A stretch of DNA of 64,000 nt from Chromatiales bacterium (GCA_027032075.1 JALVOC010000172.1:16434-80433), one strand, 5' to 3'; shown: positions 2,340 to 45,761, counted from the stretch's first letter. Notes: generated from the letters alone by a model not told the origin. Numbers and translations: made by a program.

Positions 2340-2558
2340 GCAGGGCCGGCAACCTCAACTGGCCGCCAGGGATGGCGGTCAGATGCGGCTGTCGAGCTTA
2401 GCTGGACGATGTAGAGAATGTACGCGTGCCGTGGAGCACATGGATGTGCGGGAACGACGGTATTTACTGCGTGGCATGTAAAATACCCCTGCCCCTGATG
2501 CGAAACCGGAATCTGCCAATACTGTTAAATGATCTGGTATTCGGAACACTTATTTTAG
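2340..2558 (+). repeat. Structured intergenic repeat, type-1, 5'-truncated copy (F1-a)
   Basis: 2363..2558 aligns to 15706..15900 at roughly 85-90% identity by eye. It ends in the terminal motif ctggtattcggaacacttattttag (2534..2558). The left arm and left terminal repeat are absent. Confidence 0.8.
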
Positions 2559-6357: not shown

Positions 6358-6564
6358 ATGGCTACAGGTGTCGTCAAGTGGTTTAACGAATCCAAGGGTT
6401 ACGGCTTTATTTCCCCATCGGATGGCAGCGCAGATGTGTTCGTACATTTTTCCGCAATTGTCAGCGACGGTTTTCGCACTTTGAACGAAGGTCAAACGGT
6501 GAACTACGAAGTGGAAAACGGCCCCAAAGGACCACAAGCATCGAAAGTAACCGTGCAAAGCTAG
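6358..6564 (+). CDS. cspA: Cold-shock protein, CspA family
   Basis: 68 aa, [18 protein letters not shown]...VFVHFSAI (RNP1/RNP2 motifs). GAGG Shine-Dalgarno upstream. Confidence 0.95.
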
Positions 6565-13508: not shown

Positions 13509-13635
13509 ATTCTAATTCATGGTTAAGGGAACTTGCCCTCTGAAAATCATCCGTATCCGAAATGCAGGGATCTTCCCCATTTCAGTTAGCGGATGAATTT
13601 CGGGGGGCAACCCTTTGACAGCCCCCTGAAGACAG

Positions 13636-13687
13636 GTGTTTTGAATACCAGTTCATTTAACATTATTGACGGATTCCAGTTCCGCAT
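13636..13687 (-). repeat. Isolated long-arm module of the structured repeat family
   Basis: 43/52 identical by eye to the reverse complement of the right arm of the 15.6-kb element (15846..15897). Confidence 0.6.
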
Positions 13688-14174
13688 CTGCGGTCGAAGT
13701 AAATACAACGGCAGCAGATTCCTTCTTACTCTTGCATTCTCCCTCAAACATCTTTATACCAGCAAATCACTGCTGTCCCGTTAACTCCCACTCCCCCGGG
13801 AGAGGGTTGGGGTAAGGGGTGCTTAACGGGATAACTCATTTGTTTTTTTACCCACTCATCCTGGCCTTCTCCCGGGGGGGAATGAATCGCGCCAATTTCA
13901 GCGTTGCATGATCCCCTCTCCTCCATGGCTTCGATCAGGCAAGGTGTATACTGGGTCAGAGATTTACCAGGTTTTCAGCTAATGTTAACGGCACAGTAAT
14001 GCAGGCAAATTTAAAATGGATCCCCTATACTGAATAACAGAATAATCAGTCAATTTACAATCAGGCAGGTATATCGTTTTTCAACATGTCACCTTTGAAT
14101 AAATCAGGATCACAATAATCTATACGATATAAAATAAACCGGATTTCAGGAAAACAACGAAGCGGAACAATTAC

Positions 14175-15566
14175 ATGCACATCGAATTCCATGGCGCCGA
14201 TCGTGGCGTCACCGGCTCGTGCCATCTGATTGAATGCGCCGGCAAACGCCTGCTGATCGATTGCGGTCTTTACCAGGGTGGACGCGAACTGGAAGAGGAG
14301 AATGCCACCGACTTTGGCTTTGATCCGGGAAGTATCGATTATCTGCTGCTGACCCACGCTCATCTGGATCACTGCGGGCGCATCCCCCTGCTGGTGAAAC
14401 GCGGGTTTAAAGGTGAGATCATCACCACTGCGGCGTCGCGTGAACTGGCGCGATTGGTGATGCTGGATGCCGCTTATCTTAATGAGGAGGAAGCGGAATA
14501 CAAGTCACGCAAGGCTGCACGCCATGGCCGCAAGCGACATGCGATCGAGCCGCTTTACACCACGCTGGACGCACTCAACAGCCTGGATTTCTTCGGGCGC
14601 AGTGCGGATTACGGCGGGATGATTGAGCTGGCGCCCGGTATCCGCGCCACCTTCCTGGATGCCGGCCATATCCTCGGCTCTGCAAGCATTCTGCTGGAAC
14701 TCAACGAAACAGGACACAACAGGCGGGTTTTGTTTTCCGGCGATCTTGGCTACAGCGGCCGTCCGATACTGCGCGATCCGACTCCGCCGCCACCGGTCGA
14801 TGTGGTGATCATGGAGACGACCTACGGCGATCGCTGCCATAAACAACTCGCCCCTTCGGTTGAAGAATTGTATGCCGCCATTGAAGATACCTTCCGCCTT
14901 GGCGGGAATGTGATCATTCCCACTTTCGCCCTGGAGCGTGCCCAGGAGATCCTCTACTTCCTGCGCGAGGGGGTTGATGACGGGCGTCTGCCGCGCGGCA
15001 TGCAGGTGTTTCTCGATTCACCCATGGCGATTTCGGCCACGCAAATCTTCAAGCGCCATCCCGAATGTTACGACACCGAAACCATGACGATCTTCAGTGA
15101 AGGTCGCGATCCTTTTGACCTGCCGGGCCTGCATTTTACCCGCGAGACAGCCCAGTCCATCGCCTTGAACCAGGTTGTCAGTGGCGCCGTGATCCTGGCA
15201 GGCTCCGGCATGTGTACCGGCGGGCGGGTGCGCCACCACCTGAAACACAACCTCTGGCGCCATGACAGCAGCGTGATATTTGTTGGGTACGCGGCACACG
15301 GCACCCTCGCACGGCATATCATTGATGGCGCGGAAAGTGTCCGGATCTTTGGCGAGGAGATCCCGGTGCACGCGTCGATCTATACCATCGGTGGTTTTTC
15401 CGCCCATGCCGATCGTGACGAACTGCTGGCCTGGCACCGTCATACCGATCATCCCGGAATAACGTACCTGGTGCACGGTGATGAGGAAGCAATGCAGCAT
15501 TTCGCCCGGCGATTAAAGGGCAACACCGTGGAAATGCCGAGCCTGCATCAGACATTTACCCTTTAA
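14175..15566 (+). CDS. MBL-fold beta-CASP family hydrolase (RNA-metabolising type)
   Basis: HAHLDHCG motif. Size (463 aa) and C-terminal GGFSAHADRDEL...HGD motifs are typical of beta-CASP proteins. Confidence 0.85.
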   Translation: MHIEFHGADRGVTGSCHLIECAGKRLLIDCGLYQGGRELEEENATDFGFDPGSIDYLLLTHAHLDHCGRIPLLVKRGFKGEIITTAASRELARLVMLDAAYLNEEEAEYKSRKAARHGRKRHAIEPLYTTLDALNSLDFFGRSADYGGMIELAPGIRATFLDAGHILGSASILLELNETGHNRRVLFSGDLGYSGRPILRDPTPPPPVDVVIMETTYGDRCHKQLAPSVEELYAAIEDTFRLGGNVIIPTFALERAQEILYFLREGVDDGRLPRGMQVFLDSPMAISATQIFKRHPECYDTETMTIFSEGRDPFDLPGLHFTRETAQSIALNQVVSGAVILAGSGMCTGGRVRHHLKHNLWRHDSSVIFVGYAAHGTLARHIIDGAESVRIFGEEIPVHASIYTIGGFSAHADRDELLAWHRHTDHPGITYLVHGDEEAMQHFARRLKGNTVEMPSLHQTFTL

Positions 15567-15588: not shown

Positions 15589-15901
15589 CCTAAATAGGCG
15601 TTCCGAATACCAGTACACTTGGGAAATGGAGCATTAGGACCAGAGGTCTTTTACATGACCGTCAGCCGCAGGGCATGGATTGTTCCTGACAATCCTTATG
15701 CATTTCCGCCATCCCTGGCGGTCAGATGCGGCTGTCGTGCGTACCTGGACGATGTACAGGATGTACAAGTGTCGTGGAGCACATGGATGTGCGGGAACGA
15801 CTGTATTTACAGCGTGTCATGTAAAAGACCTCTGGTCCTAATGCGAAACCAGAATCTGCCAATAATGTTAAATGATCTGGCATTCGGAACACTTATTTAG
15901 G
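15589..15901 (+). repeat. Full-length structured intergenic repeat, type-1 (F1-b; MITE-like, non-autonomous)
   Basis: Terminal inverted repeats cctaaataggcgttccgaataccag (15589..15613) and ctggcattcggaacacttatttagg (15877..15901). Perfect 28-bp inner stem 15632..15659 / 15816..15843. No ORF with protein-like properties. Confidence 0.85.
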
Positions 15902-26324: not shown

Positions 26325-26568
26325 CGTTCCGAATACCGGATCATTTTGTATTGTTGCCGGATTCTAAATGAGTGTGCGAAAAAGGTGTCCAGTTTGTTAT
26401 TTGACAAGCCAGCTCTCCGGTACCCCATGGCAAGACTCTCGGCAGCAGGGATGCTGCCGTGAAGCTTACAGGGATGTATTCACAGCGTGTCTCGCCATGG
26501 GGTACCGGAGAGCTGGCCTCTCGATACACGGAATTATCCCCTATCAATGTGGACACCTTTTTCGCACA
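26325..26568 (+). repeat. Structured intergenic repeat, type-2 copy A
   Basis: Long-arm module 26325..26365. Nested palindromes: outer 17-bp stem 26374..26390 / 26551..26567, inner 20-bp perfect stem 26409..26428 / 26497..26516, 68-nt core 26429..26496. Confidence 0.85.
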
Positions 26569-26650
26569 GCTATCTGATTTCGCAACAGGGCCAAAGGAAC
26601 AAACAGCTTCACACCCTTTATTTTCTTGCCCGCATATAACTGAATATTTG

Positions 26651-26735
26651 TTCAGCATAGCAGATCATTTTAATATTGTATCCGGCATCGATACTCAAAG
26701 CCAGAATCAGACTTGTATGCGGAACGCAGGTTTAA
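26651..26735. repeat. Degenerate arm and terminal-repeat remnants of the same family
   Basis: cagatcattttaatattgtatccgg resembles the long arm. ccagaatcag...gtatgcggaacgcaggtttaaac resembles a deleted right arm plus terminal repeat. It abuts the chemoreceptor stop codon (26732). Confidence 0.45.
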
Positions 26736-29050
26736 ACCTTAAACTGTGCAACCAGGGACTGCAACTGTACCGACAATTTTGCAAGTTCATCACTGGCCGT
26801 TGTCGTCTGCTGAGAAGCAGATGCGGTTTCTTCCGATACCTGACTGATGGTGATGATGTTTCTGTTCATCTCCTCTGTCACGGCACTCTGCTCCTCTGCC
26901 GCACTGGCGATTTGCGTATTCATCTCACTGATGGTCGTTACCGCCCGGGTAATCGCCTCAAGGGACGAGGCCGCTTCCACCGCAAGCTCCACACCTTGTT
27001 TTGCCTGCATACGCCCTTTTTCCATTGCCTCAACAGCGCGTTGCGCCCCTGTCTGCAGGCGCTCGATCATTTCTTCGATTTCCGCAGTGGATTCCTGTGT
27101 GCGGCTGGCCAGGGTGCGCACTTCGTCGGCAACAACCGCAAATCCCCTGCCCTGCTCACCTGCACGAGCTGCTTCAATCGCGGCATTGAGCGCCAGCAGA
27201 TTGGTCTGTTCCGCAATCCCTTTAATCACATCCAGCACGGTTCCGATGTTTTCGCTGTCATGTTCGACCTGCTGAATCACATCGGCTGCGCTTTCTATAT
27301 CACCTGCCAGTTTCTCTATTTCATTCGTGGTCTGCTGTACCACGGACTTGCCGTTGTTCGCTTCGGTATCACCTTCTTGGGCAGCAGTCGCAGCAGCAGC
27401 GGCATTATTGGCGACTTCCTGTACCGTTGCAGACATTTCATTCATCGCGGTGGCGACCTGATCCGTTTCGGATCTTTGTTTTTCCACCCGCACTCCGCTT
27501 TCCTTCGCTACTGTCGACACCTCCTCGGCAGTGGATGCAAGTTGATTGGTGGCGCTGTGTACCTGCTGGATCAGAGCTTCGAATTTCTCCAGCATTTTGT
27601 TGAAAGCGCCTGCCATCATGCCAATTTCGTCTTTAGAGCTGATGCCGGCACGCACGGAAAGATCGTTGTTGTTCTCAACCTCCTCCATGACACCCCGAAG
27701 CTGAATGATCGGTCTGGTGAGATTGACCGCGAAAAACAGCCCGATACCACACGCCACGAGTGCAACTATCACACTGATTATCAACATGGTCACCAGATTG
27801 TTTCGTGTCATTTCCTTGACAACACGAAATGCCTCATCTTCATCCACTTCACTCAACAACCCCCAGTTCAGACCGGGAATGGACAGCGCCGTGTATGCGG
27901 ACAGCACGGGAATGCCACGATAATCCGGGATAATGTTAAAGCCGGTTTGCCCTGCGACCGCGGCTTTGGCCGAATCAGACTCGACCTTTTGCAGACCTAT
28001 GCTGGTTTCCTTGGCGTTGATTTCCGCAAGCACCTCTGGTGCCACGCCGTTGTTTCGCAAGGCTTCGAGATAACCCGCCTTGTCCTCTATCAGAAACCGG
28101 CTCATGCTGCGCATTTTCAGATCTCCGCCTACCAGATAGGTCTCACCTGAATCCCCCAAGCCATGTTCTTTCCATTGCTGCTCGCTGGTCATGATCTCGT
28201 TAATCCGCCCGATAGGCATCTGAAAGATCAGCACCCCGATTTTTTTATCCCCATCGAATATCGGTGATGCAATAAAGGATGCTGGCGCTTCATAAGAGGG
28301 TGTGTACGGCGCAAAATCAACCAGGGCGACAGCATCGGCATTCGCAGCGCTATTGGCCATGCGAAACACCTTGCCAATGCCGCTATTGGCATACGGTCCA
28401 TTTATCAATGATGTAGTGTAATCCAGCTCCTTGAAAACGGTATAGACGATATCACCTGTTTCCGGATCGACAAGAAAAATATCATAATATTCAAACTTGT
28501 TGAGAAAATCGCGGATATGCGGATGGTATTTTTTGTGCAAAGTTGCGTAGCGCGAATCATCGCCAGGATCATTCAGTTTGTCTTTTGTTCCCAACGGGTT
28601 CGGATTCGCCTGGATGAAACGGTACTGTAATACCACCGACTCGTCATCCAGACTGGAGAGCAAAGGATTGACATCAACGCTTTTACCCGCATTCTGTTTC
28701 TTGTATTCCTCAAGAAAATCCTTGTGGTAATAGTTGCCAAGCTCATTACGCAATCTTTCTACATCCTGCCCCTCCGCCACCTGCCGAAAGGCTTTTTTGA
28801 ACTCCCGCATCGCATCGATAATCATTACATCATTGGAAAAAGTCTGAATCTGGCCACGCAGGGTTTTGAAATAATCCTCAATCTGTGTCTTTTTCGCATC
28901 CCGCACCGCAATCAACTGTTTTTCCACTGCTTCCTCCATTGCCCCGGCGGTGGTGGTGCTGGATATTTTGTAGATAATCCCCGTGCCAATCACGAGCGGC
29001 AGGACGGCCAGACCAATGGAGGTAAAAATCAATTTCTTCTTTAAATTCAT
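26732..29050 (-). CDS. Methyl-accepting chemotaxis protein with periplasmic double-Cache-like sensor
   Basis: N-terminal TM, ~370-aa periplasmic region, second TM, HAMP, and the MA domain ([35 protein letters not shown]). Confidence 0.9.
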
Positions 29051-29249: not shown

Positions 29250-29385
29250 GGAATCGGACAATATTTTTCCGCTGATTTATCAGGAAAAATTATTTTGCAA
29301 ACGGGTATTTCGGATTCCGCTCCCCTTACAATTGGTATAAACCCGGCGATCGCTCACCTGCTTGCAGTTTTCCGGGCGGCTAGAT

Positions 29386-29589
29386 AGCTGTGCGAAAAAG
29401 GTGTCCAATTCAAATGACAGTGATTTCCATAAAATGGAGGGGCCGTTTCTCCAGTAGCTGCTGGCAAGACACGCTGTGAATACATCCCTGTAAGCTTCAC
29501 GGCAGCATCCCTGCTGCCGAGAGTCTTGCCAGCAGCTACTGAAGAAACGGCTTACCAATTTTTAAAGTGGACACCTTTTTCGCACGGCT
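29386..29589 (-). repeat. Structured intergenic repeat, type-2 copy B (inverted relative to copy A)
   Basis: Outer stem 29386..29406 / 29569..29589. Inner 20-bp stem 29443..29462 / 29531..29550 (one mismatch). The core 29463..29530 is the reverse complement of the copy A core, 67/68 identical. Confidence 0.85.
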
Positions 29590-29719
29590 ATTTAGACGCG
29601 GCACTAAACACAAGGAATACAGAAGGGGGGTTTGACATGGTATCTTGAGAAAATTCCGGCTTTGATGCCGGCACAGAATCTGAAAAACACCTTTTAAATA
29701 AACCACCCTCCAGAACGCA

Positions 29720-31164: not shown

Positions 31165-31528
31165 GTTATTTCTCCTGTTTTCCTGGTTCTCTTTGTCTTT
31201 AAAAATACAGACGTATGTAAAATTAAAGTGTGATGGTTATTTTGCTTTCATAAAAAAAGAGACAAAAAACCCGGATATATTTGAATAATCATTACCCCAC
31301 CTGCCAAATCGTGCATAAAATCATTTAATATTGGTGGCTTGGCCTGCTCAGACGAACAACGGGCAGAGGCTGTTGCAAATAATATTTTTCAAAAATTTGC
31401 TGTTTTATTGTCTTGTTATTTAAGGAATAATCAGCGGCGAAGAGACGATGTGCAACCACTATTCTCGAAAATCAGGGGCAACGGTGACATTTAACCTCAA
31501 AACCCAAAAGATTCCGACAGCCAGCCTG

Positions 31529-33430
31529 ATGGACATCCCGGGTCATATTACCAAAGGCGTATTGGTCTTCCTGTGCATCCTCAGCATGCAACCCGCCTGG
31601 GGCAAACCACTGGCGCCACCCGACGATCCGACACAGTCCATTACCTATTGGAAGCCTCATACCATTCCGGCGGAAAAGGATCCGCTGGTGGCACAAACTC
31701 AGGCGGTATTCAGCGTATTGTTGCGGGCCTGGGACAGCTCTCGCCCTGAACCCAGCCTGTATGTGGTTGATTCCGCAGCAGGTCCCTGGGCCGCCTCGTT
31801 GGCGGATGGCAACATCTTGCTCAGTCGCGCCGCAATCGAAACATGCATGCGTTTTGGCAAGGACCGGGCAGAACACTTGTTGGCCTTTGTGCTGGCACAT
31901 GAACTGGCCCATCAACGTTCCGATGATCTCTGGCACCAACGTTTCTTTCGTCTCATCGGCAACCAAACCCCGGAAATAAAAAATAAAATGCTAAGAGGAC
32001 TGCAACTGAACAACAAACTCTGGGCAAATGTTGCACAAAAAGAAGCACAAGCCGATCATGACAGTCTCATCCTGATGTCCAGTGTAGGCTACGATCCCTA
32101 CCAGATTCTGGACAAAAAGGATTTTTTCACCATTTGGGTGGAAAACATCTGGCAAAATTCCTGCAAGCTAAGCCAGACCAACTCACCTGTGGCACAGGCC
32201 TGCAGACAGGCGCAGAGCCGCGCCTTGCGTGCCCGCACGCAGTTAACCAATGTGGCAACACAAGCCATGCTGTATGAATTGGGGATCCAGGCGTTTATCG
32301 CAGGCCGCTACCGCCAGGCACGGCGTTATTTCACCGCCTACGGGCGCAACTACCCAGGCCGTGCGGTGTTATCCGCGCTGGGCTTGAGCCATTTTGCCGA
32401 AGCATTGAATATCAACCGGCAGCTGATAGAAAAACACGGAATGAAACGTCCCGCTTTTTACTATCCGCTGTTGCTGGATGCCACCGCCAGTATCACTCCG
32501 TGGTATCCAAAATCACTCGATGCGATAAAGCGATCCGACACGGCATCCGTGTTCGAACAGCAACAGCAAAAGATGCGAAACAGCATCGAAAACAGTATCA
32601 ACAATTTTGAAAAAGCGATCCGGCTCGAACCCGATCACGCAAAATCCTATCTGCTGCTGGCTTTTTCCTATTTACTCAATGGCAATACCTATATGGCCAG
32701 GGGAGTCGTGCAGGGGAAATATATACCCAAATTTGGCAGCGATGCCGCTTCAGATCTGCTGTTGGCAATGACCAGTGCCCTTGAAGGCGATAAAACCAGG
32801 GCAAGCAGGGCATTTGCACGGCTCATTCGCCAACTTGAAAAACCTCCGGCAAAACCGGTCATTCCCGCTGATTTGCTGGTTTACAGCGCCTACTATAACA
32901 GTGCCGCCTATGCCGAATATCTGGGAGAACAGGCCAGAGCGGATAAACTGTGGAAGGATCTGGCAGTACGGGCAAAATCCAGCGGCAACAGTTTACTCTT
33001 CCGCCTGGCACTGAATCATATCACCCCCCTTGCACCGGCAATCCACCCGTTGACAAGCGCACCGAATATCAACGGTATGCGCCTGGGTGACAGGTTTTCA
33101 CCCGAATCACTGAGTAGCCAGCCACATCGGATCAATGACCTGTGGATAGAAGGCGAGCTATACCATGTTTACCGTCTGGACAACGGCAGCCGCTATATCA
33201 TCGGACCGGACCAGAAGATTATCAGCGCCTGGCAGGATGCCGGTGAAGTCAGTTTGAATAACACGATCATGCTGGGTGACAGCGCAGATCGCCCGCTGAA
33301 AACGCTGGGGGTCCCTGACCGCAGGCTCCACATGATGTCAGGTGAATATCTGGCCTATGACAACTATGGCGTGGCATTGCACATCGTCCGGAACAAAATT
33401 GCAGGATGGTTTCTTTACAATGCCAACTAA
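31529..33430 (+). CDS. Exported M48-family zinc metalloprotease with TPR-like region (BepA-like) and extra C-terminal domain
   Basis: Trimmed to MDIPGHITKGVLVFLCILSMQPAWG (signal peptide). HELAH zinc motif plus the downstream EAQADHDSLILMSSVGYDP. Helical repeat region (FEKAIRLEPDHAKSYLLLAFSYL). Confidence 0.8.
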   Translation: MDIPGHITKGVLVFLCILSMQPAWGKPLAPPDDPTQSITYWKPHTIPAEKDPLVAQTQAVFSVLLRAWDSSRPEPSLYVVDSAAGPWAASLADGNILLSRAAIETCMRFGKDRAEHLLAFVLAHELAHQRSDDLWHQRFFRLIGNQTPEIKNKMLRGLQLNNKLWANVAQKEAQADHDSLILMSSVGYDPYQILDKKDFFTIWVENIWQNSCKLSQTNSPVAQACRQAQSRALRARTQLTNVATQAMLYELGIQAFIAGRYRQARRYFTAYGRNYPGRAVLSALGLSHFAEALNINRQLIEKHGMKRPAFYYPLLLDATASITPWYPKSLDAIKRSDTASVFEQQQQKMRNSIENSINNFEKAIRLEPDHAKSYLLLAFSYLLNGNTYMARGVVQGKYIPKFGSDAASDLLLAMTSALEGDKTRASRAFARLIRQLEKPPAKPVIPADLLVYSAYYNSAAYAEYLGEQARADKLWKDLAVRAKSSGNSLLFRLALNHITPLAPAIHPLTSAPNINGMRLGDRFSPESLSSQPHRINDLWIEGELYHVYRLDNGSRYIIGPDQKIISAWQDAGEVSLNNTIMLGDSADRPLKTLGVPDRRLHMMSGEYLAYDNYGVALHIVRNKIAGWFLYNAN

Positions 33431-33494
33431 ACCACTACAAACTGACCAGATTTTCTGATAATAGCTATACTTGTTGTTACCCTCACAGCTGTTA

Positions 33495-34454
33495 ATGAAC
33501 GACATGAGCACTTCGCATAATCAGCCAGACATTACGCAGACTGAATCCGACACGGATGAGGAACAATTGCAGCTGGCACGCCTTGCAGCCGATGGGGATG
33601 AAACAGCCCGGCGCACGATCAATCAACTGATCCACCCCGTTATCAGTTACCAGACCAGCCGTTTCTGTAAACGTTTTTGCAGGGAAAACCAGTATCGCTA
33701 TGCCTGCACACTGCAGACAGCATGGGGCTCGCCCCCAGCAGATGCAGTGTTATGTGAATGGGGTAATGCCAGTTATGCCTGGATGTTGAATGATCTCACC
33801 AACCGCAAGCGCCTGTTACAGTTTGAAGGAAAAAACGGCGCGCGCATCAATGATTATCTGTACCACATTGCCAATTCCCTGCCGTTCTATGAACGCTGGA
33901 AAGACTGGCGTTTTGGCCGCAAGATCCATGTACCCACCTATATACAGGATCTGAACCCCGATGCCGCAAAAGTATTCCTCGCCCTGCGCAATGGCGAGAC
34001 GGTCCCCGCCATTGCACAGAAACTTGGCAAATCCCAGCAACAAACCGAAGTCCTGTGCCGGCAAATCATTATCACGCTCACACGGAGAAAACGCCTGCAT
34101 CTGCTGGACCCGCCAACAACAATATCACTTACGAAAGCTGCTGGTGGCGAGGTACATGACAATGACGGTGGTGGCAGTGAAACCGAGATCGCCTCCTATG
34201 ACGAGACACCGGAATCCCGGGAAGCAAAAGAAAAGCTGCTGCAGGCCTGGAGCAAACTTTCAACAGTGGAGCAATTTGTACTGGAGGCCATGCTGATCGA
34301 GGAACAGGATGCCAGCGATGTATTACAGGCATTGAAAAAACTGAATATCAGCATCAAGCAGGGAGTGGCGGCAGAAGATACGAGCCGGCAGCAATTGTAT
34401 TATTTCCGCCGTAAAACCCTTGCCAAACTGGCAGATTTAATCAAGGAGTCATGA
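33495..34454 (+). CDS. Divergent sigma-70/ECF-like protein with Cys-rich insert and two region-4-like HTH segments
   Basis: Region-2-like: INDYLYHIANSLPFYERW. HTH-like: AKVFLALRNGETVPAIAQKLGKSQQQTEVLCRQI and EQFVLEAMLIEEQDASDVLQAL. Lies directly upstream of a zf-HC2 anti-sigma-like gene. The assignment is by pattern only. Confidence 0.5.
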   Translation: MNDMSTSHNQPDITQTESDTDEEQLQLARLAADGDETARRTINQLIHPVISYQTSRFCKRFCRENQYRYACTLQTAWGSPPADAVLCEWGNASYAWMLNDLTNRKRLLQFEGKNGARINDYLYHIANSLPFYERWKDWRFGRKIHVPTYIQDLNPDAAKVFLALRNGETVPAIAQKLGKSQQQTEVLCRQIIITLTRRKRLHLLDPPTTISLTKAAGGEVHDNDGGGSETEIASYDETPESREAKEKLLQAWSKLSTVEQFVLEAMLIEEQDASDVLQALKKLNISIKQGVAAEDTSRQQLYYFRRKTLAKLADLIKES

Positions 34455-34528
34455 ATTTTTCTGTTTTTGTTTAAATCATGCCGATGTTGGCGTCTCGTTA
34501 TTCATAAACTGACTGGCAGAATGTAACC

Positions 34529-35470
34529 ATGAACACGACAACCCATCCAAATACTGAAGCGCTGGCGGCTTTTCTGGCGGATCCGCAAGCTGCGGAATTC
34601 GAGGAACTCAGCCTGCACCTGGCGAGCTGCGGCGATTGCCGCTCCCAGGTAAAAGTGCTGTCCGCCTTACGGGAGAACCCGGCCATTATTGATTCTGCCT
34701 ATCGGCAAACTGCTGCCGGGGACACCGCCGATCTTGAGCAGGCCATGCAACAGCAGCAGATTGAGTATTATGTAGATGGCCGACTGCAGGGTGAGGAAAA
34801 ACAGCGCACTGCAACACTGCTGCAAGACAATCCTCTGGCTTTGAAAGCGGCCTTGCATTATGCCTGCCACAGTTCGGCGATGCGCGGAAAAACGGCAGGC
34901 TCCCTCAATGGCTCAACCTCGGGGCAGCGCAGCAAAAACCGGCGAGAGCACTTGGCATTCATGACTGCCGTCAGACACTGGCTGAGACTGCGCACTCCCG
35001 TGTGGCTGGCAGTGCCAACCACGGCAATCGTGACCGTGACGCTGCTCCTGGTGTTGTTACCGCGCACGCCACACTATGCCGGTGATTTCACCATTGCCAG
35101 CTACCAGGACAATGCGGTCATCCAGTTCCAGAAAAAAAATCAATCACCAGGCATTGGTTTTTTCAGTAATGCACACAAGACCATCAAGCCCTATAATAAT
35201 ATGCAGGTAAAACTTGTGAGCGGGCATTCAATCGCGCTATTCTGGCCTGCGGTTGAGAAGGCGAAATCTTACACCCTGCGACTGCAAATGTTCAAAAACG
35301 GACAGAAAATCACCCTGGGAGAGGTTACCACCACAACCACCCATGCGGAATTCACGAATATCGACACCAATGCCGACCTCCGCTATGAATGGGTGTTATC
35401 CGGAGAAACAACCGACAAAAAAACCTTTTACACCTCAGGAGGTTTCGTAATCAATCATCATGATAACTGA
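34529..35470 (+). CDS. Membrane-anchored anti-sigma-factor-like protein (zf-HC2 N-terminus, periplasmic beta-sandwich-like C-terminus)
   Basis: H-x3-C-x2-C motif (LHLASCGDC). Single TM (VWLAVPTTAIVTVTLLLVLL). About 140-aa periplasmic domain. Confidence 0.65.
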   Translation: MNTTTHPNTEALAAFLADPQAAEFEELSLHLASCGDCRSQVKVLSALRENPAIIDSAYRQTAAGDTADLEQAMQQQQIEYYVDGRLQGEEKQRTATLLQDNPLALKAALHYACHSSAMRGKTAGSLNGSTSGQRSKNRREHLAFMTAVRHWLRLRTPVWLAVPTTAIVTVTLLLVLLPRTPHYAGDFTIASYQDNAVIQFQKKNQSPGIGFFSNAHKTIKPYNNMQVKLVSGHSIALFWPAVEKAKSYTLRLQMFKNGQKITLGEVTTTTTHAEFTNIDTNADLRYEWVLSGETTDKKTFYTSGGFVINHHDN

Positions 35471-36533
35471 TGTGAGGTTTGACATGTTTTTTACCATAAA
35501 TTTTTCCAGGCACAACCGCGGTAATTTACACCGCTTGGCAGCAGTGCTGTTGTTTTGCCTGTATACCGTCGTGGTTTCGGCGGAATCCAGGGGGATCACC
35601 ATAGAAACCACGACACACAACAACAATATCACCTTCCTCAACGGTACCTACCGCGCCTTGATTATCGGCAACAATGATTACCGGGACAGCGAAGGTCGCT
35701 GGCCGCCGCTGAAAACCGCTCTCACGGATGCCCGCGCATTAAAACAGATCCTCGAGGATGATTATGGCTTCACCGATATACAGCTTCTTGAAAATGCCAC
35801 ACGCAGAGACGTATTGATCGCACTACAGGAGTTGTCAAAACGTGTCATGGCCAATGACAATGTGCTGGTGTACTATGCAGGCCATGGTTATTTCGATGCA
35901 GACACAAAAAAAGGCTATTGGGTACCGGTAGACGCAAAAGGAACGGATCAAACCACTTTTTTGCGCAATTCAACCATTCGTGACGAATTAAGCATCATCG
36001 CATCCCGCAGCAGGCATACACTTCTCATCTCTGATTCCTGCTTCAGCGGTACTTTATTACGCAGCAATACCCGCAGTATACGACCCGAAATGTATACTGA
36101 TCTGTATTACCGCAAGGTGGCCACGAAAAAAAGTGTCCAAATCATGTCTTCAGGCGGCATCGAGTATGTAGATGATGACTACAATACTTCCGGCCATTCA
36201 CCTTTTACCTATTTTCTGCTGAATGAACTGAAATACAATGACCGCAAAATGCTCACCCTCAGTGAACTATCCACCAATGTGGAAAAAGCGGTGGCAAACA
36301 ATGTATCGCAGGTACCGGAAAGCGGTGTCCTGCAGGGCGCCGGGGATGAACTGGGTGAATTTATTTTTATTAAACTAAACGTTTCCGTTGATGGTGTTCC
36401 CAAAGACAAGGTAAAGGTACAAGTCAATGTTGTACCGGCTGAGGCGCAAAGTTCAAACCGGGAACCAGAAGCCGTAACACCCAGGAAACAGGACAAGATG
36501 GAGCGCCTCGTGGCCCCCATACCGACTCTTTAA
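35460..36533 (+). CDS. Exported caspase-family (peptidase C14) orthocaspase
   Basis: YRALIIGNNDY start of the p20-like fold. Catalytic His in VYYAGHG and Cys in ISDSCFSG. N-terminal hydrophobic signal/anchor. The first ATG overlaps the upstream stop by 11 nt (alternative ATG at 35484). Confidence 0.85.
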   Translation: MITDVRFDMFFTINFSRHNRGNLHRLAAVLLFCLYTVVVSAESRGITIETTTHNNNITFLNGTYRALIIGNNDYRDSEGRWPPLKTALTDARALKQILEDDYGFTDIQLLENATRRDVLIALQELSKRVMANDNVLVYYAGHGYFDADTKKGYWVPVDAKGTDQTTFLRNSTIRDELSIIASRSRHTLLISDSCFSGTLLRSNTRSIRPEMYTDLYYRKVATKKSVQIMSSGGIEYVDDDYNTSGHSPFTYFLLNELKYNDRKMLTLSELSTNVEKAVANNVSQVPESGVLQGAGDELGEFIFIKLNVSVDGVPKDKVKVQVNVVPAEAQSSNREPEAVTPRKQDKMERLVAPIPTL

Positions 36534-40477: not shown

Positions 40478-40536
40478 CCTCTGTCCCTGATGCTCCCTTT
40501 GCCCAAGTGTACTGGTATTCGGAACGCCTATTTAGG
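40478..40536 (-). repeat. Truncated left end of a type-1 structured repeat, abutting the PRTase start codon
   Basis: 40502..40536 is 35/35 identical to the reverse complement of 15589..15623. Weaker similarity continues to 40478, immediately before the ATG at 40477. Confidence 0.8.
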
Positions 40537-40770: not shown

Positions 40771-43700
40771 CTACACTTTTTCCACTTTGGCGGGTAACCC
40801 CTGCCGGGCCACGCTGCCGACCACAAAGTCGGCCAGCACATTCAATCCCTTGCGGACCGGATCGGCGAAACCAAGATCATTGATGTTCACCCCTTTTTTC
40901 GCCAGGGCCGAACCGGGCTGCCAGTGTTCGCCAATACGGTGGCGTCTGGCACCGAGTTCATGATGCCCGAAGCCATGCTCGATTGCCAGCACACCGGGCT
41001 GGATGCCTTCGCGCACCTGGACGACGGTCTCCAGGCTTGCGCCCGGGGTGGTGATACGAATACGATCCCCTGAACGGACGCCTAACGACTCTGCATCACG
41101 CCGGTGCATGGAAACCGGATTGAGCGGATGGATCTGCTGCATGCTTGCCGTGCCAATCGTATGCGAGGACTGGTACTGCGATTTGGTGCTGATCACCTTG
41201 AAAGGCCATTTCCCGGCAGGGAAAGCCGCTTCCAGTGGTGAACCGTCGGCCAGCACCGGCGGCACCCAGGTCGGTGTACCTGGATAACGTTTGCCACTCA
41301 GGGTGTTGCGTGCCGTACCGAGGGACTCATCATAAATCTGCATCGGCTTCTTGTAGCGGCGTGCCAGCATTTCACCCTTGTAGGCCTTGGTCGCATCGGC
41401 AAACCGCCCGCCCCTGGCATAGACGTAGGCCACCTTGCGCCATTCCTCCGGTTTGAGGACTCGTTTGAGCTGTGCTGCGATGCGCTCGACACCGCCAAGC
41501 CGGATTTCTTCATCGGACGCGTCCGGCACCGCACCTCCATCGAAAGCGACATTGGCAGCGGCGCGCAAATAGAAATCCTCCGCGGTGTTGAGTGGATGCA
41601 TGCTGCCCTCCCGATCCTTGATCGCCTTGTCACCGAAACCGGGCAGCCCCATACGCCTGGCCACCTCGATGAAAAACCATTCCATGCATACGGTCCGGCC
41701 TTTGACATCCTTTACCTGTGCCGGCTCCACTACCGGCCACCGGGCGGTACTCACCTTGGTCAGATGAGCACCCCAGGCACTGGCCCAACCCCAGCTCTCA
41801 TACAAGACAGAATCCGGCACAATGTAATCTGCATAGGCATTGGATTCATTGATAAAAGGATCGATGGAAATGAGCAAGGGCAGCGCTTTGGGATCTTTCA
41901 GCTTTGATTCGATCTGTTCTTTCAGCCCCGCAATGCCGTAGAGCGGATTCGAACTCCAGAGGATCAGCGCCTTCAGGGGGTAGGGATAACCATTGAGCGC
42001 TGCGGTCAGAAACTCCGAAGACATGGCTGGAGAAAGCGGATACCAGGGTTCCCGGGACGGATAGGGCTGTTTTCCTGCCGCCTGTTTTTTTCTGAACTCA
42101 CTGCTCTTCTCGTAGGGAAACCGTTGACGTCCCAGGCCGAGCCCTTTGGGTTTGACGGCACCGGGAAATTTTTTCAGATTGTAACGCGGACCCGGTGCCA
42201 GATCCTTGAAGCGTCCACCACCCACACTGGTGCCACCCTTGCGGTTAAGATTGCCCACCAGTGCATTGAGCATGACAATGGCATAGGCAGTATAAAAACC
42301 GTTACTCCCCATCGTCCCGCCGTGGCAATCGGCTGCGGCGCGTTTGCCATGGCTGGTGAATTCCTCTGCGAGCGCGATGATGGTTTCGACTGGAATGCCA
42401 CAGAATCCGGCATATTCCTCCATCTGGTATTTATTCGCCTCATCCCGCAACAGGGTAAAACTGGTTTTTACCCTGAGGCTTTCCCCTTTGACTGTTGTGA
42501 TGCGGCCCTCGTAGAACAATTCAGCAGCACCGGCGCTGGCCTGGGAAACGGGCTTGCCGCTGGCAGCTTCGATAACAACATGAGGGGATTTTTTTGCCTC
42601 ACCGCCTGCCAGACCCAGCTGGCTGGCGCGCAGGAAGCGCCCATGCTGCGGGTGTTCCGGTTCCACGATGACGAGGTGAGTGGCATTGGAAAAAGCCGCC
42701 TCACCCGCAGCCGCGGCCGCGCGGGAATTGGGTTGTCGCAAAAAACGGGCATCATAACGATCATTTTCCAGGATCCAGCGGATCATGCCCATCACCAGTG
42801 CACCGTCGGTGTTGGGACGAATAGGTATCCAGCGGCTGCGGCTGTTGGCAGCCTGAGTGACGGAGTTGGTCAATACCGGGTCGACCACGACATATTTCAG
42901 TTTGCCCGTGCTTCGTCCGCGTGCCAGAAGCTGTCCCTGGCGTTTGAAAGGATTGCCCGCATTCCCCGGCGCGGTACCGATGAACAGCAAAAACTCCGAG
43001 TTGTTGTAATCCGGTTTGAGGTGCGGTTGTTTTTTCCAGTCCCCCAGGAGGGCAGCGTAGCCGGAACGCATGGAAAGGCCGCAATAGGAACGGTGGCCGG
43101 TAAAATTAACGGTACCAAAACTTTTTTTCGCAAAGCGGGCAGCAAAACGCAGGCGGCCGTCTTTAAAGGGCGGCATTACCGCCAGTTGGTTGGCCTTAGG
43201 TCCGAATTCGGGGTTGTCTGGATCAATGGGGGTCTTGAGATCACGGATTGCGCGCAAGCCGTCGACGTGGCCTTCACCAAACAAATCACCGCCTTCCACC
43301 ACTTCTTGCAGCAGTTGTTCCGGGGAAATCGGTGCCCATTGACCGCTGCCCCGTGGGCCAACCCGTTTCAACGGTACCTTGACGCGGTTGGGATCATCCA
43401 GTTTTTCCAGGACCGCATTGCCGCGGGCGCAGGTGGTGGAACGCCCCGACAATCCCCTTTCCTGAAACCGGCTGAGGGATCTGAAACTGTCACGCAGCGG
43501 CGTATTGAAAGGGATGTGAGGATCAGCTGATAACGGATGATAGGGATTGCCGGTTACCCGCATGACTTTTTGTGTGTTGCGATCGATACGCACCCGCACA
43601 CCGCAAACGGTGGTGCAACCCATACACATGGTGTAGGAAACGACCTGATCGGGATTCGGTGTCAGTTTTCCTGTTATCGGGTCGACCGTAAATTCCGGTG

Positions 43701-43854
43701 CCGCGGCATTACCGCTAATGGGATCATTCGGCTTTTCCGCAGCGATGACACCTTTCAGAATTTTATGTGCGGTATTGCTGTAACCAAATCCGAATGCGGC
43801 CAAAGCACCTGTAATGGTGGCACTCTTGAGAAACTTGCGGCGTGAGGTGGACAT
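40771..43854 (-). CDS. ttrA: Molybdopterin oxidoreductase catalytic subunit, tetrathionate-reductase TtrA-like
   Basis: Trimmed to MSTSRRKFLKSATITGALAAFG (Tat signal) behind an AAGGAG Shine-Dalgarno. CMGCTTVCG FeS motif. The ~1027-aa size matches TtrA rather than PsrA/PhsA. The operon context is ttrBCA plus ttrSR-like. Confidence 0.7.
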   Translation of the reverse strand: MSTSRRKFLKSATITGALAAFGFGYSNTAHKILKGVIAAEKPNDPISGNAAAPEFTVDPITGKLTPNPDQVVSYTMCMGCTTVCGVRVRIDRNTQKVMRVTGNPYHPLSADPHIPFNTPLRDSFRSLSRFQERGLSGRSTTCARGNAVLEKLDDPNRVKVPLKRVGPRGSGQWAPISPEQLLQEVVEGGDLFGEGHVDGLRAIRDLKTPIDPDNPEFGPKANQLAVMPPFKDGRLRFAARFAKKSFGTVNFTGHRSYCGLSMRSGYAALLGDWKKQPHLKPDYNNSEFLLFIGTAPGNAGNPFKRQGQLLARGRSTGKLKYVVVDPVLTNSVTQAANSRSRWIPIRPNTDGALVMGMIRWILENDRYDARFLRQPNSRAAAAAGEAAFSNATHLVIVEPEHPQHGRFLRASQLGLAGGEAKKSPHVVIEAASGKPVSQASAGAAELFYEGRITTVKGESLRVKTSFTLLRDEANKYQMEEYAGFCGIPVETIIALAEEFTSHGKRAAADCHGGTMGSNGFYTAYAIVMLNALVGNLNRKGGTSVGGGRFKDLAPGPRYNLKKFPGAVKPKGLGLGRQRFPYEKSSEFRKKQAAGKQPYPSREPWYPLSPAMSSEFLTAALNGYPYPLKALILWSSNPLYGIAGLKEQIESKLKDPKALPLLISIDPFINESNAYADYIVPDSVLYESWGWASAWGAHLTKVSTARWPVVEPAQVKDVKGRTVCMEWFFIEVARRMGLPGFGDKAIKDREGSMHPLNTAEDFYLRAAANVAFDGGAVPDASDEEIRLGGVERIAAQLKRVLKPEEWRKVAYVYARGGRFADATKAYKGEMLARRYKKPMQIYDESLGTARNTLSGKRYPGTPTWVPPVLADGSPLEAAFPAGKWPFKVISTKSQYQSSHTIGTASMQQIHPLNPVSMHRRDAESLGVRSGDRIRITTPGASLETVVQVREGIQPGVLAIEHGFGHHELGARRHRIGEHWQPGSALAKKGVNINDLGFADPVRKGLNVLADFVVGSVARQGLPAKVEKV

Positions 43855-43886
43855 AGTGAAATCTCCTTTGTCGAAAACTTGACGAT

Positions 43887-44903
43887 TCAGGCTTGTGTCT
43901 TGCGTTTCTGCAAAGGCAGAAAACGGATGATCAGAAGCAGCAGAACAACCCACAGTCCCAGAGAACCGATGATGCCCAGAACGTCTTCTGTGCCAAACGT
44001 GAGTTCATCAAAATAAAAACCCGCAGCGTTTTTCGGGATCCCCTGTCCGCCGATGAACATGTTCCAGCGAAACATCCAGGCACCGAAGACTGCGAGGAAA
44101 CCCGCCAGCCAGGCATAACCCGACTTGCCTGCGCTCAAGCCGAGGGGAACAATCCCGCCGAGAAAAAGGCCGAAGAAAAGCATGTCAAGCGGCAGATATT
44201 CCTCACCCAGTCTCATCAATTGCTCGCCGGATTGTGACAAGCCCATGAGACCGGCAAACATCCATGTCAGCTGCAGCACGATGCCAAGCAGCAGATAAAT
44301 GAACATATAGCGTTTCAGCTTAAGCGCAGTAAACTCGTCGTTTCCAAGAAAACGATTCAACAACAAACCCATGCCGGCGGCACCACTCATCGCGGTGATC
44401 AGGAAAAGCACGCCTAACCAGGCGGTGTTCCAGAGAGGCCGGCTGATGAGGATACCCATCTCACTGCCGGTATACAGCGCCACCAGCAAACCGGTGAGCA
44501 GCGTAATTCCTCCCAGCATACGTATCACAGCCTGTTCCCGGTCGGCGGCGGCACGGTAGACAGAGAAGGCATAAGCCAGCAGCGACAACAGATAGGCTGG
44601 CAAAAAGAAGGACCCCCACGACATCCAGGAGGAAGGAGTGAAATGCAAATAAAACTGGTAAAAACGTGCCGGTTGATGCAGATCCGAGACCAGCGCCACC
44701 GGTGCCACCAGCCCGGTGCTCAAGGCAACGACAAGCCCGATACGGCCCATGCTTTCAAGTTCCCGGCGGCGGAACACAAACGCCGGCATGCTCAGCAACA
44801 TGCCACCGATACTGATCCCGATGAGGAAAAAATATTGTACCGCCCAGGAGTTCCAGGTGATCTCACGGCTGACATTGATCATTTCGATAATTTGCGTATT
44901 CAT
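43887..44903 (-). CDS. ttrC: NrfD/PsrC-type integral membrane quinol-interacting subunit, TtrC-like
   Basis: Trimmed to the ATG at 44903, which overlaps the ttrB stop (ATGA). About 338 aa, polytopic. Confidence 0.7.
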   Translation of the reverse strand: MNTQIIEMINVSREITWNSWAVQYFFLIGISIGGMLLSMPAFVFRRRELESMGRIGLVVALSTGLVAPVALVSDLHQPARFYQFYLHFTPSSWMSWGSFFLPAYLLSLLAYAFSVYRAAADREQAVIRMLGGITLLTGLLVALYTGSEMGILISRPLWNTAWLGVLFLITAMSGAAGMGLLLNRFLGNDEFTALKLKRYMFIYLLLGIVLQLTWMFAGLMGLSQSGEQLMRLGEEYLPLDMLFFGLFLGGIVPLGLSAGKSGYAWLAGFLAVFGAWMFRWNMFIGGQGIPKNAAGFYFDELTFGTEDVLGIIGSLGLWVVLLLLIIRFLPLQKRKTQA

Positions 44904-45631: not shown

Positions 45632-45761
45632 CGATCTACCCCTTGATTACCGGTGCTTGTAAACACATGCCGCCGGTGGTACACGCGTAAATACTTGCTG
45701 TACCTAAAAGGTAGGCCGGAAGCGGGAGACTGGATATTGTGGAAAACCGATATATTACTGA

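What the first reader, a model, noticed from the sequence alone, without database searches (positions are those of the whole stretch)
26409..26516. Compensatory change in a 20-bp stem around a near-identical 68-nt core (copy A vs copy B)
Copy A is ccagctctccggtaccccat-[68-nt core]-atggggtaccggagagctgg.

Copy B (29443..29550, read as the reverse complement) is ccgtttcttcagtagctgct-[core]-agcagctactggagaaacgg.

The cores are 67/68 identical and the outer 17-bp stems (gtgcgaaaaaggtgtcc / ggacacctttttcgcac) are 17/17 identical.

The 20-nt arms differ at 9 positions. Eight of these are matched by a complementary change in the partner arm, leaving a single mismatch in B.

The spacer segments between the stems are only about 55% similar. 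Conservation of pairing rather than sequence is the signature of a selected RNA or ssDNA structure. It is not expected from neutral decay of a repeat.

The core contains a GGCAGCA-GGGA-TGCTGCC hairpin.
Basis: seen in the sequence. Interest (0 to 1): 0.75.

Follow-up and report, generated by a model that had tools for sequence, protein, structure and literature searches.

The report
Nested-hairpin mobile repeat, not an RNA gene
The two look-alike hairpin sequences are copies of a small, previously undescribed mobile repeat (MITE-like) in an uncultured gammaproteobacterium, and their matched stem changes are most simply explained by DNA-level upkeep of inverted repeats, with no need for a selected RNA.

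Summary
Copy A (26364-26576, +) and copy B (29380-29595, -) share a 67/68 identical core and identical 17-nt outer arms. Their 20-nt inner arms differ at 8 fully compensated pairs.

They are not a unique RNA locus. A metagenome scan found at least five more copies at unrelated intergenic sites in the same species. All carry either the A or the B arm version, so the 8 covarying pairs are one split, not replicated covariation.

B-type copies occur as three inversion isomers. In one the 52-nt core loop is flipped; in another the whole interior between the outer arms is flipped. A sister family in the window (15590-15900) shows a flipped 4-nt loop and a symmetrised 85-nt arm.

At two loci, strains more than 99% identical carry different families at the same junction. 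Ends are TA-flanked, and three of five rebuilt targets are CTAG, the rarest tetramer here. The terminus matches the Tc1 end at 19/25.

Best reading: an IS630/Tc1-type MITE-like element whose arms stay complementary through template switching or arm conversion. An RNA role is neither needed nor excluded. Rfam, plasmid and phage searches found nothing. This is a new member of a known kind, of modest interest.

The parts
26364..26576 (+). Copy A, complete A-type family-1 element: CTAAATGAGT - outer arm - spacer 1 - inner arm - core - inner arm' - spacer 2 - outer arm' - AGCTATCTG.
   Evidence: The identical copy is at the same locus in ENA and JGI contigs L006 and L008.
26374..26390 (+). Copy A outer arm O, GTGCGAAAAAGGTGTCC. 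Its partner O' is at 26551-26567.
   Evidence: four exact copies in the window, against 0.15 expected by chance.
26409..26428 (+). Copy A variable inner arm (A version), CCAGCTCTCCGGTACCCCAT. Its partner is at 26497-26516.
   Evidence: The pairing is 20/20 Watson-Crick.
26429..26496 (+). Copy A 68-nt core. It consists of the closing stem GGCAAGAC / GTCTCGCC and a 52-nt loop (26437-26488) holding two CA-GGGA-TG hairpins 22 nt apart.
29380..29595 (-). Copy B, complete B-type family-1 element. It lies 330 nt upstream of the MCP start and 186 nt downstream of the 460-aa gene.
   Evidence: In three other samples a family-2 element sits at the same left junction.
29463..29530 (-). Copy B 68-nt core, flanked by the B-version inner arms at 29531-29550 and 29443-29462.
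26732..29050 (-). Methyl-accepting chemotaxis protein gene (772 aa) lying between the two inverted copies. It is a neighbour, not shown to be part of the element.
15590..15900 (+). Sister family-2 element. It has the same CTAAATAG... terminus, outer arms GTTCCGAATACCAG, perfect 29-bp mid arms and a 156-nt core ending TATTTACAGCGT (family 1 ends TATTCACAGCGT).
26326..26363 (+). Fragment of a family-2 arm (GTTCCGAATACCGGATCATTTTGTATTGTTGCCGGATTC) directly abutting copy A. The sequence after copy A (GATTTCGCAAC...) continues the same arm, so copy A appears to be inserted inside an older family-2 arm.
2362..2555 (+). Truncated family-2 copy. Its small hairpin loop reads CCGCCA-GGGA-TGGCGG where other copies read CCGCCA-TCCC-TGGCGG, so the 4-nt loop is flipped.

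Best explanation
Copies A and B belong to two subfamilies of a roughly 215-nt non-coding mobile repeat, best described as MITE-like. The host is an uncultured gammaproteobacterium.

Anatomy: the element is a nested palindrome. From outside to inside it has a TA-flanked imperfect terminal inverted repeat of 25-27 nt (which includes the invariant 17-nt arm), two unequal spacers, a 28-bp inner inverted repeat, and a 52-nt asymmetric loop.

Shown here:
- The element is multi-copy and intergenic.
- Occupancy of a site differs between near-identical strains.
- The segments enclosed by each pair of arms occur in both orientations among copies.

Inferred:
1. It is, or recently was, moved in trans by an IS630/Tc1-mariner-type transposase. 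That enzyme would bind the terminal repeats and insert at TA, preferably within CTAG. CTAG is so rare in this genome that sites get re-used.
2. The arms stay perfectly complementary because each pair of arms corrects itself at the DNA level. The likely route is intramolecular template switching, or conversion across the hairpin during replication or repair. This copies a change from one arm into the other and occasionally flips the enclosed segment.

On this reading the 8 'compensatory' differences between A and B are the accumulated outcome of arm homogenisation in two lineages. They are not stepwise compensation under selection for an RNA fold.
For: Multi-copy and dispersed:
- A 24-nt core pattern found six metagenome contigs, five of them new loci (L010, L011, L013, L014, L015). 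They lie next to unrelated housekeeping genes such as pyrF, the ccm operon, cytochromes and a nitroreductase.
- Short-read contigs from several samples stop about 30 nt into the element, as expected for a repeat assembled at k = 31.

Only two arm versions:
- Every copy carries either the A or the B inner arms, each with its own spacers.

Inversion isomers, with the ends held in one orientation:
- L013 and window copy B share one form.
- L014 is identical to them except that the 52-nt loop is the exact reverse complement (52/52).
- L011 has the whole interior between the outer arms reversed (88/91).
- The sister family shows a flipped 4-nt loop, TCCC against GGGA.
- The sister family also has a copy whose arms have been made symmetric over 85 nt at 93%.
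- It has one further compensated T:A to C:G change in its mid arm.

Mobility:
- At the copy-B junction, the window and L017 carry family-1 type B. L017 has 0 mismatches to the window over 7.5 kb. L016, L018 and L019 are 99.4-99.9% identical in the flank but carry family 2 at that junction.
- At the pyrF stop codon the pattern is reversed. L013 has family-1 type B, while L022 and L023 have family 2.

Ends:
- TA flanks both ends in 4 of 5 complete copies, and the rebuilt target is CTAG in 3 of 5.
- CTAG is the rarest tetramer in the window, 10 observed against 247 expected.
- The family-1 terminus aligns to the Tc1 terminus TACAGTGCTGGCCAAAAAGATATCC (primer sequence in PMC3680223) at 19/25, and 0 of 20,000 shuffles score as well.
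- IS630 inserts at TA within CTAG (Tenzen & Ohtsubo 1991, cited in PMC2170065).

Literature on the mechanism:
- Template switching between inverted-repeat arms homogenises the arms and inverts the spacer (PMC8604942).
- It operates at quasipalindromes in E. coli (PMC7202029).
- Compensatory changes in hairpins of mobile palindromic repeats are already described for REPINs (PMC3116915).

Individual copies decay without compensation: L015 and L010 carry T>A in the core hairpin, and window B, L015 and L010 each have a single C>T in an arm.
Against: - No empty site was recovered, so the TA duplication and the exact element boundaries are inferred, not shown.
- Copy A ends in TG rather than TA.
- No transposase was found. 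None of the 40 window ORFs scanned is a transposase or recombinase, and the rest of the genome could not be searched.
- The Tc1 comparison was chosen after the fact, and family 2 does not share that similarity.
- Inversion was seen only between copies at different loci, never at one locus in two strains. In-place flipping is therefore inferred.
- The core is 98.5% identical between subfamilies whose arms and spacers are only 55-60% identical. Arm homogenisation does not explain that contrast. It points to constraint on the core, or to recent exchange of the core between subfamilies.
- Core conservation among the new copies is partly built in, because the search required 24 exact core bases.
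Confidence: 0.68

Rival explanations
1. The element is a selected structured RNA, either an sRNA or a cis-regulatory element. It would be transcribed, the conserved core would be the functional part, and the long stems would be kept by compensatory evolution.
For: - The pattern of a conserved core with variable but paired stems is what functional RNAs show.
- The core holds two GGGA (GNRA-type) tetraloop hairpins.
- A partly similar hairpin and core end occur in the sister family.
- All three single-sided arm changes are C>T and leave G.U on the core's plus strand.
Against: - No Rfam family reaches its gathering score. The only weak hits are generic long-hairpin miRNA models, and they match both strands equally.
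- The core is found in both orientations relative to the rest of the element.
- The two window copies face opposite ways relative to the surrounding genes, which are all on the minus strand.
- Stems of 20-28 perfect Watson-Crick pairs with no G.U in either consensus, and four transversion double changes, fit DNA symmetry better than RNA evolution.
- Individual copies carry uncompensated hits in the core hairpin (L015, L010).
- Sites are occupied by different families in strains that are about 99.5% identical.
Confidence: 0.1
2. The element is REPIN-like and moves as single-stranded DNA. A Y1 (RAYT / IS200-IS605-type) transposase would recognise the folded hairpin, so the pairing would be selected because the ssDNA hairpin is the transposition substrate.
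For: - It is a long hairpin made of inverted arms with a less conserved spacer.
- Compensatory changes are reported as common in REPINs (PMC3116915).
- Fold energy as DNA is extreme, z = -14.
- Copies occur in clusters and nested next to one another (L011), as in higher-order REP arrays.
Against: - The arms are not short REP-type palindromes, and neither arm version shares a conserved 5' tetranucleotide.
- The ends look like classical TA-flanked terminal inverted repeats and resemble Tc1.
- No Y1 transposase was found among the 40 window ORFs scanned.
Confidence: 0.12
3. The arms covary because both are binding sites for the same protein. Each subfamily would descend from a different parent insertion sequence with long terminal repeats, so left and right arms change together by selection on double-stranded DNA recognition, not on pairing.
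For: - This is the standard behaviour of terminal inverted repeats.
- The outer arms are invariant across both subfamilies, as expected for a shared transposase site.
Against: - It does not explain the flipped loops and interiors, or the 85-nt symmetrised arm in the sister family.
- The inner arms of A and B bear no resemblance to the outer arm, so a second binding site would have to be assumed.
Confidence: 0.07
4. The inversions are programmed. The nested inverted repeats would be recombinase sites, and flipping the core would switch a function. Alternatively, the two inverted copies would form a composite transposon that carries the MCP gene.
For: - Three isomers are seen among four B-type copies.
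- The two window copies flank one gene in inverted orientation.
Against: - A 52-nt segment, and a 4-nt loop in the sister family, are too short for synapsis by known invertases.
- No promoter-like site lies inside the elements.
- No recombinase was found among the ORFs scanned.
- The part of the MCP gene next to copy A is present in other strains at the same place, while the copy-B site varies independently.
Confidence: 0.03

Closest known systems
Bacterial MITEs of the IS630/Tc1-mariner type, for example RUP of Streptococcus pneumoniae (thought to be mobilised by IS630-Spn1), and Correia/NEMIS elements of Neisseria
   Same: - Small non-coding element.
- Terminal inverted repeats of about 25 nt.
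- TA at both termini.
- Many intergenic copies, with transcripts predicted to form long stem-loops.
- Subfamilies that differ by internal segments (PMC2229807).
- IS630 targets TA within CTAG (reference cited in PMC2170065).
   Different: - About 215 nt, twice the size of RUP or Correia.
- A second, perfect 28-bp inner inverted repeat and a conserved 52-nt asymmetric loop.
- Nested inversion isomers, which the review read here does not describe for those families.
- No sequence similarity to anything in Rfam, PLSDB plasmids, phage records or GTDB representative genomes.
- The cognate transposase is unknown.
REPINs (REP doublets forming hairpins, mobilised by RAYT transposases)
   Same: - Inverted arms plus a spacer form a long hairpin.
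- Compensatory changes across the hairpin are common (PMC3116915).
- Copies cluster in arrays.
   Different: - The arms here are not REP palindromes.
- The termini are TA-flanked inverted repeats that resemble Tc1.
- No RAYT gene was seen.
Quasipalindrome template-switch mutagenesis and hairpin-loop inversions
   Same: - One event both makes the arms more alike and inverts the spacer (PMC8604942, PMC7202029).
- This matches the flipped 4-nt loop, the flipped 52-nt core, the flipped interior of about 160 nt and the symmetrised 85-nt arm seen here.
   Different: - It is a mutational process, not an element family.
- Here it is inferred from comparing copies and was not observed directly.
ERIC/IRU elements of enterobacteria
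   Same: - Imperfect palindromes in intergenic regions.
- Co-transcribed with neighbouring genes, with orientation-dependent effects on mRNA stability (PMC2229807).
   Different: - No sequence similarity.
- ERIC is 127 bp with short terminal repeats.
- No transcript data exist for the present element.

Membership tests
Bacterial MITE (IS630/Tc1-mariner type) | Terminal inverted repeats | tested here: met
   A 17-nt perfect repeat sits within a 25-27-nt imperfect one: TA-AATAGCCGTGCGAAAAAGGTGTCCA against TA-GATAGCTGTGCGAAAAAGGTGTCCA.
Bacterial MITE (IS630/Tc1-mariner type) | Small size with no coding capacity | tested here: met
   The element is 213-218 nt. The only ORF spanning it is 69 aa (26368-26577) in copy A, and copy B has no start codon at that position.
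Bacterial MITE (IS630/Tc1-mariner type) | Multiple dispersed copies in one genome | tested here: met
   Two copies in the window plus five other loci in metagenome Ga0256830, next to unrelated genes. Total copy number is unknown.
Bacterial MITE (IS630/Tc1-mariner type) | TA target-site duplication, with the IS630 preference for CTAG | tested here: inconclusive
   TA lies at both ends in 4 of 5 complete copies, and the rebuilt target is CTAG in 3 of 5. Copy A ends in TG. CTAG has an observed/expected ratio of 0.04. No empty site was found, so C-TA...TA-G could instead be part of the element.
Bacterial MITE (IS630/Tc1-mariner type) | Insertion polymorphism between related strains | tested here: inconclusive
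   At two loci, strains with 99.4-100% identical flanks carry different families at the same junction. This shows turnover, but no filled-versus-empty pair was seen.
Bacterial MITE (IS630/Tc1-mariner type) | Termini match those of a transposase-encoding element | tested here: inconclusive
   19/25 identity to the Tc1 terminus, with 0 of 20,000 shuffles scoring as well (Tc1 sequence from PMC3680223). The comparison was chosen after the fact. No cognate insertion sequence from this organism is available, and none was found among the 40 window ORFs scanned.
REPIN / REP-RAYT | Arms are short REP palindromes with a conserved 5' motif, linked to a RAYT (Y1 transposase) gene | tested here: not met
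   Neither the outer arms nor the inner arms are self-palindromic REP units, and the two arm versions share no 5' tetranucleotide. No Y1 transposase was found among the ORFs scanned. The rest of the genome could not be searched.
Any Rfam RNA family | Score at or above the family's gathering threshold | tested here: not met
   There are 0 hits in the whole window. With E-value reporting, the best hits are the miRNA hairpin model mir-5882 at 35 bits (gathering score 95), matching both strands, and MIR3454 at 27 bits (gathering score 142).
Integron attC site / gene cassette | R''/R' core sites (RYYYAAC ... GTTRRRY), all sites in one orientation, an integrase nearby | tested here: not met
   The ends read CTAAAT... 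and ...ATCTAG, with no GTTRRRY. The two copies are inverted relative to each other. No integrase was found among the ORFs scanned.
Programmed invertible switch (inverton) | Inverted repeats around a promoter or coding segment, flipped by a dedicated recombinase | tested here: not met
   No promoter-like site lies in either element. The flipped segments are 4, 52 and about 160 nt long. No recombinase was found among the ORFs scanned.

The most novel reading that the evidence does not exclude
The 52-nt core is a functional module in its own right. It carries two CA-GGGA-TG hairpins 22 nt apart, stays 98.5% identical between subfamilies whose arms and spacers are only 55-60% identical, and is partly echoed in the sister family. 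It could be a cis-acting ssDNA or RNA motif needed for mobilisation, or a host-recruited regulatory RNA carried around the genome by a MITE. In that case the nested flips would change which strand presents it.
Probability: 0.1. Interest if true: 0.6.

Novelty: new member of a known kind. Interest (0 to 1): 0.33.

Why it matters
Perfectly compensated stem changes around a conserved core look like textbook evidence for a functional RNA. This case shows that they can arise in a mobile palindromic repeat whose arms correct each other as DNA. Covariation between only two repeat subfamilies should therefore not be read as RNA selection.

The element is a previously uncatalogued repeat family in an uncultured sulfur-oxidiser-like gammaproteobacterium. 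It has three unusual features:
- inversion isomers at several nested levels;
- a sister family with a similar terminus;
- re-use of the same insertion sites in a genome almost devoid of CTAG.

These features make it a candidate natural system for studying hairpin-driven template switching and target-limited transposition. It also explains why metagenome assemblies of this organism break at these sites.

Tried and rejected
- **GTDB genome scan.** The 18-nt outer arm gave only five single matches in unrelated MAGs, each lacking a partner arm. I treat these as chance.
- **Viral contigs.** Scans with the core, the outer arm and the family-2 terminus returned nothing.
- **Plasmids and phages.** blastn of the whole element returned nothing.
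- **Exact look-ups that failed.** The MCP, the beta-CASP protein and the DUF4136 protein were not on record. As a result I could not recover the right-hand junction of the copy-B site in other strains, or any empty site.
- **Host name.** The taxonomic placement rests on MCP homologues that are about 60% identical.
- **Contig breaks.** I first considered that contig ends just inside the outer arm meant both orientations coexist in the population. I rejected this because breaks about 30 nt into the element are what a repeat gives at k = 31.
- **IS5-type duplication.** A 4-nt duplication (CTAG/YTAA, as for MITEPsy1 in PMC3189936) was considered. It was rejected because three independent copies all have CTAA at one end and CTAG at the other, so the fourth base belongs to the element.
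- **Peptide.** The 69-aa ORF across copy A was rejected because it is not conserved in copy B.
- **Helix bookkeeping.** In one search the small core hairpin was entered one column off, so its 0% pairing is my error. Only the 28-pair helix result is used.

Full report
**1.

- The 68-nt cores differ at one base.
- The 17-mer GTGCGAAAAAGGTGTCC occurs four times and forms the outer stem of both copies. Shuffles give 0.15 matches even with three mismatches allowed.
- The 20-nt inner arms differ at 9 positions on the left and 8 on the right. Eight pairs change on both sides and stay Watson-Crick.
- On the 28-pair helix, 8 pairs change on both sides. With the partner column slid by 1-3 the count is 0-1.
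- The full elements are longer than reported: 26364-26576 and 29380-29595.
- They fold at -120 and -125 kcal/mol as RNA (z = -11.8 and -14.5). As DNA, copy A folds at -72 kcal/mol (z = -14.0).

**2. Anatomy**

From outside to inside, the element consists of:

- a TA-flanked terminus (TA-AATAGCC or TA-AATGAGT at one end, GGCTATC-TA read on the other);
- the invariant 17-nt outer arm;
- an 18-nt spacer on one side and a 34-36-nt spacer on the other;
- the 20-nt variable arm plus the closing stem GGCAAGAC/GTCTYGCC;
- a 52-nt asymmetric loop with two small hairpins, each CA-GGGA-TG, 22 nt apart.

The two window copies lie in inverted orientation on either side of a 772-aa methyl-accepting chemotaxis protein gene (26732-29050, - strand). 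The window is ordinary chromosome, carrying mutL, the ttr operon, ahcY, lpxC and dnaJ-like genes. The MCP's relatives are about 60% identical and come from Acidiferrobacteraceae and Thiogranum-like gammaproteobacterial MAGs.

**3. It is a repeat family, not a unique locus**

- Rfam has no match at gathering score. The relaxed search returns only generic miRNA hairpin models well below threshold, on both strands.
- The outer arm is absent from GTDB representative genomes apart from five single matches without a partner arm, which I read as chance.
- The element is absent from plasmid, phage and viral collections.
- A 24-nt core pattern hit six contigs of one JGI metagenome. One is the copy-A locus. 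Five are new loci with different flanks, next to pyrF, a ccm operon, cytochrome genes and a nitroreductase.
- Contigs from other samples stop about 30 nt into the element, which is the normal behaviour of a repeat at k = 31.

**4. Only two arm versions exist**

L010 and L015 carry the A arms with A-type spacers. L011, L013 and L014 carry the B arms with B-type spacers.

- The 8 double changes are therefore one split between two subfamilies, not eight replicated observations.
- The single G.T in window copy B is private to that copy.
- Other copies carry their own uncompensated hits. L015 and L010 have C>T in an arm and T>A in the core hairpin. L011, L014 and L015 have changes in an outer arm.
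- Four of the eight double changes are transversion pairs, which cannot pass through a G.U intermediate.
- Neither subfamily's consensus arms contain a G.U pair.

**5. The arms interact as DNA**

With the element ends held in one orientation:

- L013 and window copy B are the same form.
- L014 is identical to them (89/91 and 73/74 outside the loop), except that the 52-nt loop is the exact reverse complement (52/52).
- L011 has the entire interior between the outer arms reversed (88/91).

So three of the four possible isomers appear among four B-type copies.

A sister family (family 2) adds further cases:

- The window copy at 15590-15900 has a similar terminus (CTAAATAGGCGT against CTAAATAGCCGT in copy B), different outer arms (GTTCCGAATACCAG) and perfect 29-bp mid arms. 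Its 156-nt core ends TATTTACAGCGT, against TATTCACAGCGT in family 1.
- One family-2 copy (2362-2555) has CCGCCA-GGGA-TGGCGG where the others have CCGCCA-TCCC-TGGCGG, a flipped 4-nt loop.
- Another (L011:1855-2179) has its two unequal spacers replaced by a symmetric pair, giving 85-nt arms at 93%.
- Its mid arm shows one more compensated T:A to C:G change and one uncompensated change.

Template switching between inverted-repeat arms is documented to homogenise the arms and invert the spacer in a single event (PMC8604942). It operates at quasipalindromes in E. coli (PMC7202029). This accounts for both the compensation and the flips without any RNA.

**6. The elements turn over between near-identical strains**

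- Downstream of the 460-aa gene, the window and L017 carry family-1 type B. L017 has 0 mismatches to the window over 7.5 kb.
- L016, L018 and L019 have flanks 99.4-99.9% identical to the window, yet carry a family-2 element starting at the same junction.
- At the pyrF stop codon the reverse holds. The JGI contig L013 has family-1 type B, while L022 and L023 have family 2. L023 comes from the sample that matches the window strain.
- Both insertions at pyrF preserve an in-frame stop codon.
- In L011 a family-2 copy, a B-type copy and the start of another family-2 copy lie close together. The first two share a single TA, and 11 unique bases precede the third.
- Copy A itself appears to sit inside an old family-2 arm.

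**7. How it probably moves**

- Four of five complete copies are flanked by TA on both sides.
- Removing the element and one TA rebuilds CTAG in three of the five.
- CTAG is the rarest tetranucleotide in the window, 10 observed against 247 expected. This would explain why the same sites are used again.
- IS630 inserts at TA within CTAG (Tenzen & Ohtsubo 1991, cited in PMC2170065). IS630-family elements need only their terminal repeats of about 24-30 bp (PMC2170065).
- The family-1 terminus matches the Tc1 terminus at 19/25, and 0 of 20,000 shuffles score as well (Tc1 sequence from PMC3680223). I chose this comparison after noticing the resemblance, so it is a lead rather than a test.
- No transposase was found among the 40 window ORFs or the ten locus ORFs scanned.
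- No empty site was recovered, so this step remains an inference.

**8. What remains unexplained**

The core is 98.5% identical between subfamilies whose arms and spacers are only 55-61% identical. Arm homogenisation does not explain this. Three possibilities remain:

- constraint on the core for mobilisation;
- recent exchange of the core between subfamilies;
- a function of the core as RNA or ssDNA.

Part of the apparent invariance among the new copies is built in, because the search required 24 exact core bases.

**9. Verdict**

The inference of a selected RNA is not needed, and several features weigh against it. These are the core occurring in both orientations, the opposite orientations of the two window copies relative to transcription, the Watson-Crick-only arms, the decay of individual copies and the turnover between strains.

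The element is a new family of a known kind: a bacterial MITE-like palindromic repeat. Compensated hairpins in such repeats are already described (PMC3116915, PMC2229807). The nested inversion isomers and the site re-use in a genome with very few CTAG sites are the more interesting parts.

Noticed in passing
window 15590-15900; partial copies at 2362-2555, 2558-2636, 13631-13700, 26326-26363, 26649-26727 and 40478-40536: A second, related nested-palindrome repeat family (outer arms GTTCCGAATACCAG, 29-bp perfect mid arms, 156-nt core), with several decayed or truncated copies in intergenic regions of the window.
   Followed up: partly
whole window; CTAG at 6561, 6863, 6909, 11683, 23292, 29380, 53351, 59644, 61252 and 61264: CTAG is extremely depleted, 10 observed against 247 expected. 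It is the lowest of all 256 tetramers. CTAA (39 against 237) and TTAG (25 against 202) are also rare. One of the ten CTAG sites is the end of copy B.
   Followed up: partly
L013:1011-1238 compared with L022:10696-10750 and L023:2424-2452: At the pyrF stop codon, two different repeat families are inserted at the same TA in different strains. Each supplies the third base of the stop codon (TAG or TAA), so pyrF stays intact.
   Followed up: yes
window 14175-15566 (+): A 463-aa beta-CASP metallo-beta-lactamase protein. Its best NCBIfam match is the type VII CRISPR-associated Cas14 model at 393 bits, below the 800-bit cutoff. No CRISPR array was looked for.
   Followed up: no
window 35460-36533 (+), with unannotated neighbours at 31448-35470: A caspase-like (Peptidase_C14) protein matching the EACC1-associated caspase model at 84 bits (cutoff 140). 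It sits in a run of ORFs without family matches, which could be a conflict or defence system.
   Followed up: no
window 26368-26577 (+) and 26459-28150 (+): Two ORFs that are probably spurious. A 69-aa ORF spans the whole of copy A, starting at the ATG inside CTAAATGAGT. A 563-aa ORF lies antisense to the MCP gene. The same kind of false gene call (81 aa) appears inside the family-2 element in an ENA contig (L020:3885-4130).
   Followed up: partly
window 26732-29050 (-): The full-length MCP sequence between the two copies appears in the protein collection only from this one 220-kb contig. Its nearest relatives are about 60% identical. In other samples the gene is cut at contig ends.
   Followed up: partly
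window 40771-48270 (-): A tetrathionate respiration cluster: TtrA (1060 aa), an Fe-S subunit, a LuxR-type response regulator and a TtrS-like histidine kinase. A family-2 arm remnant lies just downstream of ttrA, at 40478-40536.
   Followed up: no
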